From IMG/VR virus record IMGVR_UViG_3300000176_000001: DNA of 64,000 bases; one strand, written 5' to 3'. The notes below the pieces were generated by a model that saw only the letters and a program-made list of their open reading frames with translations, was not told where the DNA came from and made no database searches. Both the position numbers and the translations under genes were made by a program. How positions within the stretch are numbered: position 1 is the first letter of the stretch; each line of letters starts with the position of its first letter. This stretch comes from a virus. Of this stretch, positions 11,650 to 54,623 are shown one piece after another.

Positions 11650-12396
11650 TCATGCAACTATCCCCAACCGATCCTTGGCTATAATATACTCCTTGACCAT
11701 GCTGGATCGAACGATGTCATTCTCGTCGAACTCCACGAACTCGAAGCTCTTCATCTTGTTGATGATCTTCATAAAGTCCTTCAGTCCCTCTCGGTCGGCA
11801 TACCTTGTGAAGTCTGACTGCCTGAAGTCACCGCAGAATAGTATCTTACAGTTCTTACCGACTCTGGTTATAACTGAGTCTAACTCGTGAATAGTAAGAT
11901 TAGCGATCTCATCCACAACAACGATACAGTCGTTAAGAGTAATCCCCCTAATAAATGAGGTAGATATGAAGTCGACAAAACCCTTCTGCTTAAGGTACTC
12001 ATAAGCGTCTGAGCGGCCAAACATCTCTGTGAATATAGACTGATACGGTGCCTCATATACCTTGGTCTTCTCCTTGTTATTACCTGGTAGAAATCCCATA
12101 TCTCTAGTCGGCACCACCGACCTAACAATAACCAACTTCTTAAACCTGTCAGAACCGTCGATGATCTCTCTCATCGCCATATAACACGATATGAAGGACT
12201 TACCTGTTCCCGCTATACCATGCAGCATCATATTCTTACCGTCCTCGTATGCCTCGAACGCACGCTGCTGGTTCTTAGTCATCGGCTCGATATACTTGAG
12301 CCTGAAATTTAACTTGACTATGTTCTCTTCCGGCTTAATTCCCTGCTGTCTTGCTACTCTTCTCTGTTTTCTCGTTAGACGCTCGGTTGTTTCCAT
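11650..12396 (-). CDS. phoH: PhoH-family ATPase
   Basis: GIAGTGKS Walker A, MGFLPG, RGITL, DEIAN, TRVG, GDFRQSD, DIVRS. Confidence 0.95.
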   Translation of the reverse strand: METTERLTRKQRRVARQQGIKPEENIVKLNFRLKYIEPMTKNQQRAFEAYEDGKNMMLHGIAGTGKSFISCYMAMREIIDGSDRFKKLVIVRSVVPTRDMGFLPGNNKEKTKVYEAPYQSIFTEMFGRSDAYEYLKQKGFVDFISTSFIRGITLNDCIVVVDEIANLTIHELDSVITRVGKNCKILFCGDFRQSDFTRYADREGLKDFMKIINKMKSFEFVEFDENDIVRSSMVKEYIIAKDRLGIVA

Positions 12397-12420
12397 AGGT
12401 ATTCTTCTTATTGGTTAGTG

Positions 12421-12657
12421 TTAAAACGTGTTTACTGTCGAGCGCTTAAAGCCTCGTGAGTTCTCCCTTTTAATTCGCTTTAATACATCACGAAATCCTG
12501 CGTCAGGCTTGGTCGCCACTCCTGACACAATTGCTGGGGCAGATACTAACTGCTGCACGTTTGCATTCTCTGCCAAATACTTCTCTAAGTCTGAGTAGCT
12601 CATAAACATCTCAAACTCCTCGCCCGTATCAGTGTTCATCAGGTTGTAGGTGGGCAT
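12421..12657 (-). CDS. FmdB-like small protein
   Basis: MPTYN...TGEEFE N-terminus; adjacent to phoH. Confidence 0.55.
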   Translation of the reverse strand: MPTYNLMNTDTGEEFEMFMSYSDLEKYLAENANVQQLVSAPAIVSGVATKPDAGFRDVLKRIKRENSRGFKRSTVNTF

Positions 12658-12869
12658 GTCTCAAGCCTTTCTCGTCTAATAGGTCTAGTAGCTCAAGCTC
12701 TTCTAGATAGTCATAGTCCATCGGGTCAAGTCCCTCGTCCTCTTCCTCGATAAGGTTATCGATATTCTTAGTGCGCAGAAGATACTCTACGCGCTTCTCT
12801 TTACGACTCTCCTTATTGCGCTTCGTAACGCCGTAACCGTCCATGTACTCACGGTCCGCATAGCGGTCG

Positions 12870-13334
12870 TTATGCTTGCTGTGCTTCGACTTGCCCATCT
12901 GACTTTTTTGGCTCCTCTCCTAATAGACCAGGGAATGCTTCTGCTACAATGTCTGCCGTGATCCCCTTGTACGGCAATTTCTTCTCCTTGATGGCACACA
13001 GCAACAGCGCGTCGGCTGGTGTCACTGCCTCAAGCAACTCAATGAACATAGCCTCGCGCTGGGTCTGTGACCTTACAGGCTGACCGTTCTTCACAAAATA
13101 CACGAGTCTACGCGCCTCTTTGTGAAGCATGTTCTCTTGGTCTTGCAGCTCGTTAGCCTTAAATGGTGGTTGACCCGGCGGCAATAACCACTCGAGATTA
13201 GGATGGAATGCACCCTGTAATACTGTCTTCAGTGAGAAGAAGTCATTAGCCTTCAGTGCCTCGACCTTCTCTTTACGTGACTTTAGCTTAGAGACCTTCT
13301 CGAGGAACTCAGCCACACCTATAACCATACCCAT
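12870..13334 (-). CDS. Hypothetical T4-like protein next to rnh
   Basis: WLLPPG.PPF, REAMFIELLE, LPYKGIT motifs. Confidence 0.7.
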   Translation of the reverse strand: MGMVIGVAEFLEKVSKLKSRKEKVEALKANDFFSLKTVLQGAFHPNLEWLLPPGQPPFKANELQDQENMLHKEARRLVYFVKNGQPVRSQTQREAMFIELLEAVTPADALLLCAIKEKKLPYKGITADIVAEAFPGLLGEEPKKSDGQVEAQQA

Positions 13335-52053: not shown

Positions 52054-53490
52054 TTAGTAATTATAACGCTCAGACATGATTGTCTTGAGCATAATAGCTT
52101 CTGGTGTAAAGTTATCCAGATCTGCTGCCAGAACTGACTTAACAATTGCTGGAGAGAAACCAGATATCAAAGCAGCACCACGCACATCATACTTGACAGG
52201 AACATTGTCTTGAGCATTTAGGTTCCAAAACACAATGTTAGGAATTGTGTAGCCGGCCTCTGCATACTTACGCGCAATCATCTGCATTGCTGAGTCGTCG
52301 AAACGAGCGCATTGGTCAAATTGCATGTCAGACAGAATCAACAGAGCTGCTGGCATCTCTTCGTGAGGAACATTATTCTCAATAGCAACATCTAAGATCT
52401 TTTGAATAGCTGCATTAAGGTTAGTGTTCATTTCCCATTCAGATGATACCATCTGCTTCATCTTATCAAGGATATTACCAGTGAGATTAAGAAGCTTAGG
52501 TTTTTCAGAGAAAGTCAAGAAGGTATCCTTGAACTTACCCTTGTTCTTATCTGCAAGGTAAAGACCTAGAGACACAGATACATCCAAGCAAGTAACAGAA
52601 GACTTAGAGTTATAGCCACCTGCCTTAGATATCATAGAACCTGAAACGTCAACTAGTGGAAGAATATTAGCATCACCAACATAGTTAGGCAATGCTTCCC
52701 ACTGAGCCAAGATGTGGTTCATGTTAGACTGATCATAGTTATTACGATAACCAGAAGGCCAAACACCTTTAATAACATCGTAAGGATAAACTGCACCAGC
52801 ATTAACCTTAACCTCTGCACGATCTTCAGGCTTATCAGAGACAAGCTTTGCAGCCCATTCCTTATACTTCTCAGTGTGACGTGAGAATGCCTTCTTATAA
52901 CGTGAAGAAGCAACAGAAGGAACGTGGTTGAAGTTAATGTTATCCCAGTCCTTTGCACACATCTGAGTCTCAACAACTTGTGTCAATTCAACCAGACGCT
53001 TACGATAGAACTTAGGAGTCCAACCAAGGTGCTTACGAAGCTTTGCAGCTACTTCACCCTGACGAGGCATCCACTTTGCACAAAGACCATTGCCCTGCAT
53101 AAGAGCAGCATAGATGAATGAGAAAGCAAAGCCTTCTAACTCAGTATCAACTAGGACGAGCAAGTCATCCCAACGACCAAGTTCTGGTACCTTCATGATC
53201 ATTGCACGTGCACGATCCTGATCTGTCTTAGCAAGATCCAAAAGGATGTCACGGAAGATCTTACGCTCACCAGCACCACCACGGATGTCACGAGCCCACA
53301 ATGCAATACGACCAGCGATATCTGCATCTTGAACACGAGCTGCTGTGAAAGCAGGAATTACGTTTTGCCCACGCATAGCACCAATCTTGAAGAACAAGTC
53401 AGTAAGAGCGTTAGCAGTAGATGCACGAGCCTTCATGCCATTTGTAGTTCTATCAGATTGATTTTGAACAGCGCTTGCAAATGTAGTCAT
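52054..53490 (-). CDS. DUF2828 family TROVE-like/vWA (Ro60-related) protein
   Basis: ARDIRGGAGER, GRWDDL, AKWMPR, VPS.A, MIDAS DVSGSM, LSDMQFD, FWNL, SGFS; start reassigned to MTTF behind a GGAG RBS. Confidence 0.85.
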   Translation of the reverse strand: MTTFASAVQNQSDRTTNGMKARASTANALTDLFFKIGAMRGQNVIPAFTAARVQDADIAGRIALWARDIRGGAGERKIFRDILLDLAKTDQDRARAMIMKVPELGRWDDLLVLVDTELEGFAFSFIYAALMQGNGLCAKWMPRQGEVAAKLRKHLGWTPKFYRKRLVELTQVVETQMCAKDWDNINFNHVPSVASSRYKKAFSRHTEKYKEWAAKLVSDKPEDRAEVKVNAGAVYPYDVIKGVWPSGYRNNYDQSNMNHILAQWEALPNYVGDANILPLVDVSGSMISKAGGYNSKSSVTCLDVSVSLGLYLADKNKGKFKDTFLTFSEKPKLLNLTGNILDKMKQMVSSEWEMNTNLNAAIQKILDVAIENNVPHEEMPAALLILSDMQFDQCARFDDSAMQMIARKYAEAGYTIPNIVFWNLNAQDNVPVKYDVRGAALISGFSPAIVKSVLAADLDNFTPEAIMLKTIMSERYNY

Positions 53491-53510
53491 ATCACTTCTC
53501 CATTTTACTA

Positions 53511-53566
53511 CAGATTCAACTTTTGTTTGTTTCGATACAAATTTTGAGGGTTGCGGAACTGAATCT
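53511..53566 (-). ncRNA. Y-RNA-like element 1 (short)
   Basis: AGATTCAGTT-CCGCAA...AAACAAA-AGTTGAATCT-G terminal helix. Confidence 0.6.
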
Positions 53567-53573
53567 AAATCGA

Positions 53574-53635
53574 CAGGATCTATTCTGCTTTTTCCATAAA
53601 AAAGTGCCTTACGGCAATTGTGCTGTAAAGATCCT
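53574..53635 (-). ncRNA. Y-RNA-like element 2 (short, GNRA hairpin)
   Basis: AGGATCT-TTACAGCA...TGCC-GTAA-GGCA...GCAGAAT-AGATCCT-G. Confidence 0.6.
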
Positions 53636-53643
53636 AAAATCAA

Positions 53644-53752
53644 CAGAGTGAATTTTGTTTGCCTCACCACGAGGCGGACTCGTCAGATGTGACGAATATT
53701 GGAGTCGAACCAATCATAGGCTTTTAGGCCATTTATTTGCTGAACTCACTCT
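53644..53752 (-). ncRNA. YrlA-like Y RNA with permuted tRNA domain
   Basis: Terminal helix AGAGTGAGTT/AATTCACTCT encloses a T-arm, a loop-closed acceptor-like stem and a D-arm, in that order. Confidence 0.72.
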
Positions 53753-53758
53753 AAAACT

Positions 53759-53834
53759 TGGTAGTCGGTGACGGGCTTGAACCGCCGACATTCTCGGTGT
53801 AAGCGAGATGCTCTACCAACTGAGCTAACCGACC
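53759..53834 (-). tRNA. tRNA-Val(TAC)
   Basis: Loop CTTACAC, CCA. Confidence 0.92.
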
Positions 53835-53876
53835 GTATAAATATGCTTTATTATATATCTTTATTGGAGCAACACT

Positions 53877-54623
53877 ATGATAAATGATTTAAGTTTCCTA
53901 GAGAAAGCCTATCAATTTGCAGTATTAGCTGGTGCTGCCTATAAGGATGATTGTAGTAAAGAATTTAATGACCTAGGTTTAGGTAACTATGTATTCTTTG
54001 ATAATGCAGGAGCACAGGGTCATGCAGCTTGCAATGACACAGACTTAATCCTGACATGCAGAGGCACACAACCAACCTCCGTTAATGACTTACTAGCAGA
54101 TCTAGACACTATTCCAAAAACACATGGCTTTGGCTTTGTACACTCTGGCTTTAGAAAAGAAGCCCGTAAGATCATGCCAATGATGTTTAACTATGTTAAG
54201 AGATATCCTGGTCGCAACATATGGATTACCGGTCATAGCCTAGGGGCTGCAATGGCAACCTATATAGCCCAAGAACTTGAGTTCGCAAATCTAACTCCTA
54301 AGATGTTATTCACATACGGAAGTCCTAGAGTTGGAAGCCAAAAGTATGTCGACTATTTTCCAGTAGAGCATCATCGCTTTGTTAACTGCAATGATGGTGT
54401 CACAAATGTTCCACCTGTATTTTTAGGATTTAGACATCATGGAAGTCTTCACTATATCAACTTCTATGGAAACATACGCGAGTTGACACAGTGGCAGAGA
54501 ATTAAGGATAAGTGGAGAGCCCACATAAGATCTTGGAAACAGGGTAAATGGGTTGACGCTATAGAAGATCACAGCATCAGTCTATACGCTGAGAAGATCA
54601 AGAACATAGACCCATCAAAGTAA
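53877..54623 (+). CDS. Class 3 lipase
   Basis: RGT, VHSGF, TGHSLGAA, YGSPRVG, D.V..VP, DH. Confidence 0.92.
   Translation: MINDLSFLEKAYQFAVLAGAAYKDDCSKEFNDLGLGNYVFFDNAGAQGHAACNDTDLILTCRGTQPTSVNDLLADLDTIPKTHGFGFVHSGFRKEARKIMPMMFNYVKRYPGRNIWITGHSLGAAMATYIAQELEFANLTPKMLFTYGSPRVGSQKYVDYFPVEHHRFVNCNDGVTNVPPVFLGFRHHGSLHYINFYGNIRELTQWQRIKDKWRAHIRSWKQGKWVDAIEDHSISLYAEKIKNIDPSK

What the first reader, a model, noticed from the sequence alone, without database searches (positions are those of the whole stretch)
53644..53752. Circularly permuted tRNA mimic (YrlA architecture) inside element 3
Seen, 5' to 3': variable-arm-like GGC-CTAAAA-GCC; T-arm ATTGG-TTCGACT-CCAAT; a directly stacked 8-bp acceptor-like stem ATTCGTCA-CATC-TGACGAGT closed by a loop; a 2-nt linker; D-arm GCCT-CGTGGTG-AGGC with GG. 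The terminal helix replaces the anticodon arm. Known: this T, acceptor, D order is that of bacterial YrlA RNAs. Inference: an unchargeable tRNA-elbow decoy or tether that tRNA finders would miss.
Basis: partly seen in the sequence, partly recalled or inferred. Interest (0 to 1): 0.8.

Follow-up and report, generated by a model that had tools for sequence, protein, structure and literature searches.

The report
Phage tRNA-mimic Y RNA beside Ro60-like gene
A large phage carries a roughly 110-base RNA built like a transfer RNA with its parts in a different order; it lies just before the gene for a ring-shaped Ro60-like protein and is most likely that protein's partner RNA, in a little-described branch of the known Ro60/Y-RNA particles.

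Summary
On the minus strand, 53753..53644 folds as described: a terminal helix enclosing a small hairpin, a canonical T-arm, a closed 7-8 bp acceptor-like stem, a 2-nt linker and a D-arm with GG. A covariance model finds 31 such RNAs in 24 related phage loci. In these, 97.6% of pair cells are paired and 21 of 23 pairs show compensatory changes.

The YrlA reading is largely right, for three reasons:
- The element is the first of three tandem RNAs that share one handle (UAGG-stem, CAGCAA ... A-rich strand, stem-CCUGUUGA).
- The array ends about 20 nt before a DUF2828/DUF7788 gene whose predicted fold is Ro60 (Z 18.2 to phage phiLo Ro60).
- All 69 homologous loci with enough upstream DNA carry such RNAs, on the gene strand.

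It is not a member of Rfam YrlA:
- The window copy gives no match to the YrlA model; relatives score 37-40 bits against a cut-off of 69.
- It has CAGCAA in place of the GNCGAA motif.
- The protein has no Pfam TROVE match.

The handle resembles Dictyostelium Class I RNAs. I call it a new variant of a known kind. Protein binding and the role of the tRNA-like part are inferred, not shown. This scan has noted the same protein-plus-CAGCAA-RNA pairing on many other genomes.

The parts
53759..53834 (-). tRNA-Val(UAC) with encoded CCA. It ends 5 nt before the U that opens the terminal helix, so the RNAs are probably co-transcribed with the tRNA cluster.
   Evidence: ARAGORN; Rfam tRNA 66.8 bits.
53743..53753 (-). 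5' strand of the terminal helix (UAGAGUGAGUU). This is the handle stem.
   Evidence: MFE fold. The helix is 100% paired in 128 distinct related RNAs, and 6 of its 7 modelled pairs covary.
53737..53742 (-). CAGCAA motif directly 3' of the 5' stem strand. It is the presumed protein-recognition element.
   Evidence: In 128 distinct RNAs, the G and first A of the GCA core are invariant; the core C and the motif's opening C are each conserved in all but one or two. It is also present beside the gene in Mycobacterium, Escherichia, Synechococcus and Listeria phages.
53719..53730 (-). Variable-arm-like hairpin GGC-CUAAAA-GCC.
   Evidence: A similar hairpin is seen in L044 and other long-class relatives. 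I did not test it for covariation.
53698..53714 (-). T-arm: 5-bp stem with a G53-C61 equivalent and the loop UUCGACU.
   Evidence: The helix is 100% paired in 29 distinct relatives, and 4 of 5 pairs covary.
53678..53697 (-). Acceptor-like stem closed by a loop. It is 7 bp in the model register, with G1-C72 and A at the discriminator position; an eighth A-U pair is possible. There is no CCA.
   Evidence: All 7 pairs covary, with 93% of cells paired.
53661..53677 (-). Linker CC plus the D-arm GCCU-CGUGGUG-AGGC, which contains GG. It is non-canonical at the equivalents of positions 8, 14, 15:48 and 21.
   Evidence: All 4 D-stem pairs covary in relatives.
53640..53660 (-). A-rich junction (AAACAA), the 3' strand of the terminal helix (AAUUCACUCUG) and the conserved tail UUGA.
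   Evidence: The C, G and U of the 3' CUGU are invariant or nearly so.
53574..53635 (-). Second handle RNA (module B, 62 nt): AGGAUC stem, UUUACAGCA, two small internal hairpins, GAUCCUG.
   Evidence: R1 31.9 bits; motif scan; the same type occurs in L006 and L011.
53511..53566 (-). Third handle RNA (module C, 56 nt). It ends 21 nt before the ATG, just ahead of the GGAG ribosome-binding site.
   Evidence: R1 28.8 bits. It aligns full length, weakly, to Rfam Dicty_Class_I_RNA (13.5 bits). A module ends within 60 nt of the ATG in 61 of 69 loci.
52054..53490 (-). Gene for a 478-aa Ro60-fold protein (Pfam DUF2828 + DUF7788; a helical ring part plus a vWA domain with DxSxS).
   Evidence: Pfam; phrog_850 'RNA-binding protein'; AF2 model, pLDDT 76; Foldseek top 13 hits are all Ro60; Z 18.2 over 401 residues to 9kop.

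Best explanation
The element is a Y-RNA-type non-coding RNA. It is the first of three tandem RNAs made from the tRNA-cluster transcript, just upstream of a Ro60-like (DUF2828/DUF7788) gene.

The conserved handle consists of a roughly 10-bp terminal helix whose base reads UAGG/CCUG, the CAGCAA strand facing an A-rich strand, and the tail GUUGA. It most likely docks the RNA on the ring-shaped protein encoded next to it.

The cargo is a circularly permuted tRNA body: variable hairpin, T-arm, a closed 7-8 bp acceptor stem stacked on the T-arm, and a D-arm. The handle sits where the anticodon arm would be. This cargo presents a tRNA elbow and acceptor-T minihelix to some tRNA-recognising factor (a modification enzyme, RNase P, an exoribonuclease, a repair ligase or a defence nuclease). 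The particle would then act as a tether or decoy, as Rsr-YrlA and Rsr-Yrn1-PNPase do in bacteria.

Shown here: the structure, its conservation and covariation, its fixed strand and position next to the gene, and the Ro60 fold of the protein model.

Inferred: protein binding, processing into a separate RNA, and the partner of the tRNA-like part.
For: Structure:
- There are 31 relatives with 97.6% of pairs kept and 21 of 23 pairs compensatory.
- In the long class U8, A14 and A21 are kept, and the Levitt pair 15:48 covaries: mostly G:C, with A:U three times and U:A twice.

Linkage to the gene:
- All 165 model hits lie on the gene strand.
- A motif scan gives 268 modules on the gene strand against 15 on the opposite strand, and 255 upstream of the gene against 8 elsewhere.
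- 69 of 69 loci with at least 400 nt upstream have 1-6 modules within 1 kb.
- The nearest related phage record lacks the protein gene and the RNAs together at this spot.

Protein:
- The top 13 Foldseek hits are Ro60/TROVE structures over the full length.
- Z is 18.2 to 9kop, 14.5 to 1yvp and 13.5 to 2nvo.
- The MIDAS motif DxSxS is invariant.

Reach:
- The same RNA type lies beside the gene in Mycobacterium phage LeBron (59 bits), Synechococcus phage BUCT-ZZ01, Escherichia phage EC6 and a Listeria phage.
- Rfam YrlA gives full-length matches of 37-40 bits on relatives.

Precedent:
- Y RNAs lie next to Ro60 genes in bacteria and phages and carry V-T-AS-D tRNA mimics (PMC4201824).
- Phage phiLo Ro60 binds two upstream Y-like RNAs (PMC12135203).
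Against: - There is no direct evidence of transcription, processing or protein binding.
- The window copy lacks the U8-A14 and R15:Y48 equivalents (it has C8, C14 and G15/G48), so its elbow may be less tRNA-like than that of most relatives.
- Rfam YrlA gives no match on the window copy at E <= 10.
- A phage with a 99% identical protein (L004) has a short non-tRNA module in place of this element, so the tRNA mimic is not essential to the protein.
- A Felixounavirus Ro60-like protein, Bas63 gp130, countered the Ppl defence when expressed alone from a plasmid or from T7 (bioRxiv 10.1101/2024.10.10.617714). At least that activity may therefore not need phage-encoded RNAs. I did not verify that gp130 belongs to this family.
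Confidence: 0.8

Rival explanations
1. The three modules act only in cis, with no trans-acting RNA. They would be operator sites in the 5' leader through which the Ro60-like protein regulates its own mRNA, and/or processing punctuation that frees the mRNA from the tRNA transcript (the tRNA-like part serving as an RNase P or RNase Z signal).
For: The array sits between tRNA-Val and the ATG, and module C ends 21 nt before the start codon. In 61 of 69 loci a module ends within 60 nt of the ATG. The 7-bp stem with G1-C72 is the kind RNase P recognises (PMC4201824).
Against: In LeBron, EC6 and BUCT-ZZ01 tRNA-like modules lie downstream of the gene or are scattered among tRNAs. Loci carry up to 6 modules with very different cargo. 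Covariation of D-arm tertiary positions is more than a cleavage signal would need.
Confidence: 0.12
2. It is a permuted tRNA precursor. RNase P cleavage in the loop, trimming and CCA addition would open it into a two-piece, chargeable tRNA-like molecule that is used in translation or as a primer.
For: The stem is tRNA-like: 7 bp, G1-C72, A at the discriminator position, stacked on a canonical T-arm. M. smegmatis YrlA is cleaved by RNase P and gains CCA in vivo (PMC4201824).
Against: There is no anticodon arm. Its place is taken by a 10-11 bp helix and the CAGCAA loop, which are shared with non-tRNA modules. There is no encoded CCA. ARAGORN and the Rfam tRNA model give nothing.
Confidence: 0.05
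3. It is a decayed remnant of tRNA genes: the T-arm of one and the D-arm of the next, or a dead tRNA. It would have no function of its own.
For: It lies in a cluster of 25 tRNA genes. Chen et al. 2014 note that tandem tRNAs can mimic YrlA in searches.
Against: Only a 4-nt loop separates the two acceptor strands. All four helices covary across 29 distinct relatives. The handle is conserved in 128 RNAs, and strand and position are fixed relative to one gene family.
Confidence: 0.02

Closest known systems
YrlA, the tRNA-like Y RNA of bacterial and phage Ro60 (Rsr) (Rfam RF02553; Chen et al. 2014, PMC4201824; structure preprint 10.1101/312249)
   Same: - V, T, closed acceptor-like and D stem-loops occur in that order inside a 5'/3' terminal helix.
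- The T-loop is canonical and the D-loop has GG.
- Relatives show Levitt-pair covariation.
- It is encoded next to a Ro60-fold gene, often with a second or third Y-like RNA.
- tRNA finders miss it.
   Different: - The protein-binding module differs: CAGCAA with a UAGG/CCUG-based helix, not GNCGAAN0-1G.
- The partner is Pfam DUF2828/DUF7788, with no TROVE match.
- The window copy has no RF02553 match, and relatives reach only 37-40 of the 69 bits required.
- The acceptor-like stem is nearly always 7 bp.
- The RNAs occur in arrays of up to 6 with interchangeable cargo.
Thermus phage phiLo Ro60 with Yrl1/Yrl2 (PMC12135203; PDB 9KOP, 9L5Y)
   Same: A phage Ro60-type ring protein with tandem Y-like RNAs directly upstream of its gene. 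It is the best structural match to the model (Z 18.2).
   Different: About 16% sequence identity. The phiLo RNAs were picked by a CGAA motif in an internal bulge and are not described as tRNA mimics.
Dictyostelium Class I RNAs (Rfam RF01414; PMC7919456)
   Same: The handle is alike: a short terminal stem starting with a conserved G, the motif CCUUACAGCAA next to the 5' strand, variable cargo, and a 3' end CUG(U) whose C pairs with the 5' G. RF01414 gives weak full-length matches exactly on short modules in relatives (17-24 bits) and on module C here (13.5 bits).
   Different: The Class I RNAs are eukaryotic, 42-65 nt, have no tRNA-like cargo, and their known binder is the RRM protein Rnp1A. 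All matches here are below the 41.5-bit cut-off. The element under review is 109 nt and gets no match.
Deinococcus Yrn1 with Rsr and PNPase (RYPER)
   Same: A Y RNA with a Ro-binding stem plus a tRNA-like effector part that tethers a second protein. This is the working model used here.
   Different: [quoted passage not shown] No PNPase link was tested here.

Membership tests
YrlA (Rfam RF02553) | V, T, acceptor-like (closed) and D stem-loops in this order, enclosed by a helix of the 5' and 3' ends | tested here: met
   conserved with covariation in 31 relatives.
YrlA (Rfam RF02553) | Conserved tRNA nucleotides and tertiary pairs (T-loop, G18G19, U8-A14, Levitt 15:48 with compensation) | tested here: inconclusive
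   The window copy has the T-loop, G53-C61 and GG, but C8, C14 and G15/G48. Most relatives keep U8, A14 and A21 and covary at 15:48.
YrlA (Rfam RF02553) | 5' motif GNCGAAN0-1G, the presumed Rsr contact (PMC4201824) | tested here: not met
   The 5' strand reads GUUCAGCAAAU. The family consensus is NUWCAGCAA.
YrlA (Rfam RF02553) | Score at or above the family's gathering cut-off (69 bits) | tested here: not met
   No match at E <= 10 on 53400-54000. Relatives in LeBron, L010 and L044 score 37-40 bits.
YrlA (Rfam RF02553) | Encoded within about 4 kb of a Ro60 orthologue | tested here: met
   It lies about 150 nt upstream of a gene whose model matches Ro60 structures over the full length. The protein is not a Pfam TROVE member.
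YrlA (Rfam RF02553) | Bound by Ro60; modified by TruB and DusA | not testable with these tools
   Needs immunoprecipitation and modification mapping.
Ro60/TROVE proteins (for the neighbouring gene) | Helical-repeat ring plus a C-terminal vWA domain with MIDAS | tested here: met
   AF2 model, pLDDT 76. Z 18.2/14.5/13.5 to 9kop/1yvp/2nvo over about 400 residues. D281-x-S283-x-S285, T356 and D388 are invariant in 30 homologues.
Ro60/TROVE proteins (for the neighbouring gene) | Match to Pfam TROVE (PF05731), or sequence match to solved Ro60 | tested here: not met
   No TROVE hit at E <= 10. There is no Ro60 among the PDB sequence matches, whether searched with the single sequence or a profile.
tRNA / permuted tRNA gene | Anticodon arm with a 7-nt loop; detection by tRNA models | tested here: not met
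   There is no anticodon arm. ARAGORN and Rfam RF00005 are silent on 53640-53756.
Dictyostelium Class I RNA (Rfam RF01414), for the handle only | Short terminal stem with a conserved 5' G, the 11-nt motif CCUUACAGCAA, 3' CUG(U), length 42-65 nt, score at least 41.5 bits | tested here: inconclusive
   The stem, the G, CAGCAA and CUGU are present. Module C scores 13.5 bits, and short modules in relatives score 17-24 bits. The 109-nt element itself gets no match.

The most novel reading that the evidence does not exclude
The CAGCAA handle is the universal docking module of a separate DUF2828 branch of Ro60 proteins. That branch runs from phages of many hosts to eukaryotes (Class I RNAs of social amoebae). 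The swappable cargo, here a permuted tRNA body, would make the particle a programmable decoy or tether aimed at tRNA-directed host factors such as defence nucleases or repair enzymes. This RNA would then be part of a phage counter-defence system.
Probability: 0.3. Interest if true: 0.85.

Novelty: new variant of a known kind. Interest (0 to 1): 0.64.

Why it matters
Ro60/Y-RNA particles are known from animals, some bacteria and a few phages, and their tRNA-mimic Y RNAs have no settled function. This RNA belongs to a large set with a different handle and a divergent Ro60-like partner. That partner gene is found in 711 cultured phage records, including Felix O1-like coliphages, Listeria, Staphylococcus, Campylobacter and mycobacterial phages. 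In the seven phage records I examined, no such RNA is annotated.

One Felixounavirus Ro60-like protein already has a counter-defence phenotype, and its authors only guessed at partner RNAs (bioRxiv 10.1101/2024.10.10.617714). Defined RNAs with a clear handle make that question directly testable in laboratory phages.

Tried and rejected
- A megablast of the region against cultured phages found only a 40-nt tRNA match.
- nhmmer with the single sequence found only five relatives. The covariance model was needed.
- The unguided MAFFT alignment misaligned the acceptor and D regions, and RNAalifold recovered only the terminal helix, the T-stem and 3 acceptor pairs. I realigned with the model.
- Sequence and profile searches of the protein against PDB gave no Ro60. 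Only the fold comparison did.
- The sigma-70 promoter and terminator scan of 53300-54000 found nothing.
- Modules B and C are not thermodynamically outstanding on their own (z = -2.0 and -0.6). Their support is comparative.
- The window's own genome is not held, so I could not check it for a canonical TROVE gene, RtcB or PNPase.
- The supplementary phage list of Chen et al. 2014 is not held. I could not check whether any DUF2828 phage was among their 22 phages.
- The + strand reading is rejected: every model hit lies on the gene strand, and G-U pairs would become A-C mismatches.

Full report
**What is there.** Read on the minus strand, 53753..53644 is an RNA of about 110 nt. It starts 5 nt after the CCA of tRNA-Val (53834..53759).
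- an 11-bp terminal helix
- the strand CAGCAA
- a GGC/GCC hairpin
- a T-arm with a canonical loop (UUCGACU) and a G-C pair closing it
- directly stacked on the T-arm, a 7-8 bp acceptor-like stem closed by a short loop
- a CC linker
- a D-arm with GG

The minimum-free-energy fold is this structure (-36.4 kcal/mol, z = -3.5, none of 200 shuffles as stable). It survives folding in a 274-nt context. ARAGORN and Rfam find the 25 tRNAs around it but not this RNA.

**Surroundings.**
- The 260 nt between tRNA-Val and the next ATG (53490) hold three RNAs in a row, 7-8 nt apart: 53752..53644, 53635..53574 and 53566..53511. They share conserved ends.
- The gene that follows (53490..52054) matches Pfam DUF2828 + DUF7788 and PHROG 850 'RNA-binding protein'.
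- It has no TROVE hit and no sequence match to solved Ro60.
- Its AlphaFold model (pLDDT 76) nevertheless matches Ro60 structures over the full length. The top 13 Foldseek hits are all Ro60. VIA-align gives Z 18.2 (401 residues) to phage phiLo Ro60, 14.5 to Xenopus Ro60 and 13.5 to Deinococcus Rsr. Lower hits cover only the vWA domain.
- The MIDAS residues are invariant in 30 homologues.
- The window is from a large phage: DNA polymerase, helicase, primase, UvsX-like recombinase and ribonucleotide reductase.
- In the nearest held phage record, tRNA-Val is followed directly by tRNA-Ala. The RNAs, the gene and a tRNA-Gly are missing together at this position.

**Comparative evidence.**
- Eighty viral loci encode homologues of 62-99% identity.
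- A motif-plus-pairing scan found 268 modules on the gene strand against 15 on the other strand, and 255 upstream of the gene against 8 elsewhere.
- All 69 loci with at least 400 nt of upstream DNA have 1-6 modules within 1 kb. In 61 of them one module ends within 60 nt of the ATG.
- A covariance model built from 21 tRNA-like modules gave 165 hits, every one on the gene strand. In the window it hit exactly the three RNAs (84.7, 31.9 and 28.8 bits).
- Thirty-one hits of at least 64 bits, in 24 loci plus the window, have the full permuted tRNA body.
- On their alignment 97.6% of pair cells are paired and 21 of 23 pairs have changes on both sides. With partners slid by 1-3 columns only 37-45% pair. 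That alignment was fitted to the model. However, RNAalifold on the unguided MAFFT alignment independently recovered the terminal helix and T-stem with no broken pair.
- The terminal helix is 100% paired in 128 distinct RNAs, with all four Watson-Crick types at its inner positions.
- The handle consensus is UUUAGGWUNN-NUW-CAGCAA ... AAAAR-N-NNAWCCU-GUUGA.

**tRNA likeness.**
- Most relatives ('long class') keep U8, A9, A14 and A21, a D-arm reading GCUC-AGUGGUA-GAGC, and a Levitt pair that covaries: mostly G15:C48, with A:U three times and U:A twice.
- The acceptor-like stem is 7 bp in nearly all. Its last pair is G1-C72 in 19 of 29.
- The window copy has the V hairpin of the long class but the D region of a 'short class' (C8, C9, C14, G15, G48, G21). 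Its elbow contacts beyond G18/G19 with the T-loop are therefore uncertain.

**Reach.**
- tblastn finds the protein in 711 cultured phage records.
- The model finds the same RNA type next to the gene in:
  - Mycobacterium phage LeBron (59 bits, in the gap after gp53)
  - Synechococcus phage BUCT-ZZ01
  - Escherichia phage EC6, where one tRNA-like and three short modules are scattered among the tRNAs after the gene
  - a Listeria phage
- None of these RNAs is annotated in those records.

**Comparison with known families.**
- Chen et al. 2014 (PMC4201824) define YrlA by the V-T-AS-D order, tRNA-like conserved nucleotides with Levitt compensation, a 5' GNCGAAN0-1G motif, and location next to a TROVE gene.
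  - Here the order, the neighbourhood (by fold) and, in relatives, the tertiary covariation are met.
  - The motif, the Pfam family of the protein and the Rfam score are not. There is no RF02553 match on the window copy, and relatives score 37-40 bits against a cut-off of 69.
- Phage phiLo Ro60 with two upstream Y-like RNAs is a close precedent (PMC12135203).
- Earlier notes of this scan pointed to Dictyostelium Class I RNAs, and I tested that lead. The Rfam consensus (G-stem, CCUUACAGCAA, variable part, stem-CUG) has the same build as the handle. RF01414 gives weak full-length matches exactly on short modules (17-24 bits in relatives, 13.5 bits on module C). All are below the cut-off.
- I found no paper that describes these RNAs. 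A preprint reports that Felixounavirus Bas63 gp130 looks like Ro60, counters the Ppl defence, and 'possibly' uses Y RNAs among its tRNA genes (10.1101/2024.10.10.617714).

**Mechanism.**
- Most likely (0.8) the handle docks the RNA on the Ro60-like ring and the tRNA-like cargo recruits or distracts a tRNA-recognising factor, as in Rsr/Y-RNA particles.
- Binding, processing and the partner are all inferred.
- Two facts argue that the cargo is an accessory. A phage with a 99% identical protein has a short non-tRNA module in this slot, while modules B and C are identical. And Bas63 gp130 works without its phage's RNAs in the Ppl assay.
- The rivals are a purely cis-acting leader or processing signal (0.12), an openable and chargeable permuted tRNA (0.05) and a dead tRNA remnant (0.02).

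**Verdict.** The YrlA-type reading is supported in architecture and context but not in family membership. This is a new variant of a known kind. The same protein-RNA pairing has been noted by this scan in many other genomes.

Noticed in passing
L004:2795-2984 compared with window 53752..53507: A viral contig whose DUF2828 protein is 99% identical has modules B and C identical to the window's. In place of the 109-nt tRNA mimic it has a 53-nt non-tRNA module, and a protein gene instead of tRNA-Val upstream. This looks like module swapping at the conserved handle ends.
   Followed up: partly
L014:2697-2816, L018:1197-1316, L017:1453-1555: Some handle RNAs carry a tRNA body in normal order (D-arm, a full anticodon arm with a 7-nt loop, variable region, T-arm) but no acceptor stem. 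Both permutations of tRNA mimicry therefore occur in this family, and these copies display anticodon loops.
   Followed up: partly
L042:1292-1482, L067:1171-1379: In two relatives the loop that closes the acceptor-like stem is expanded by about 75-95 nt of extra, apparently structured RNA. The rest of the tRNA mimic is kept.
   Followed up: no
L084:4219-4997 (Escherichia phage EC6, NC_027369.1, about 12100-12880): Four unannotated CAGCAA-handle RNAs, three short and one tRNA-like, lie between the tRNA genes just after the Ro60-like gene of this Felixounavirus. Their stem base reads AGACC/GGUCUGG rather than AGG/CCUG.
   Followed up: partly
window 53491-53670 (minus strand): The reading frame of the DUF2828 gene stays open upstream of the real ATG as far as a GTG at 53670, running across modules B and C and into the tRNA mimic. 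A database entry of 532 aa (P0003) shows that gene callers take the longer form. Homologues all start at the ATG that follows GGAG.
   Followed up: partly
L089 (Listeria phage LMTA-34) 5350-6503; LeBron, per PMC13148394: RNA-repair genes accompany the Ro60-like gene in some phages: a tRNA-splicing (RtcB-type) ligase 1.3 kb downstream in the Listeria phage, and an RNA ligase and polynucleotide kinase elsewhere in LeBron.
   Followed up: no
NC_014461.1 61564-61678 (Mycobacterium phage LeBron): The Rfam YrlA model gives a second full-length sub-threshold match (36.8 bits) about 21 kb from gp53. It could be another tRNA-mimic RNA or a tandem-tRNA artefact.
   Followed up: no
window 53877-54623 (+): A class 3 lipase-like gene is transcribed divergently from the tRNA/Y-RNA cluster. 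An SLT lytic transglycosylase, a cytidylyltransferase-like gene and a DUF4337 gene are interspersed among the tRNAs.
   Followed up: no
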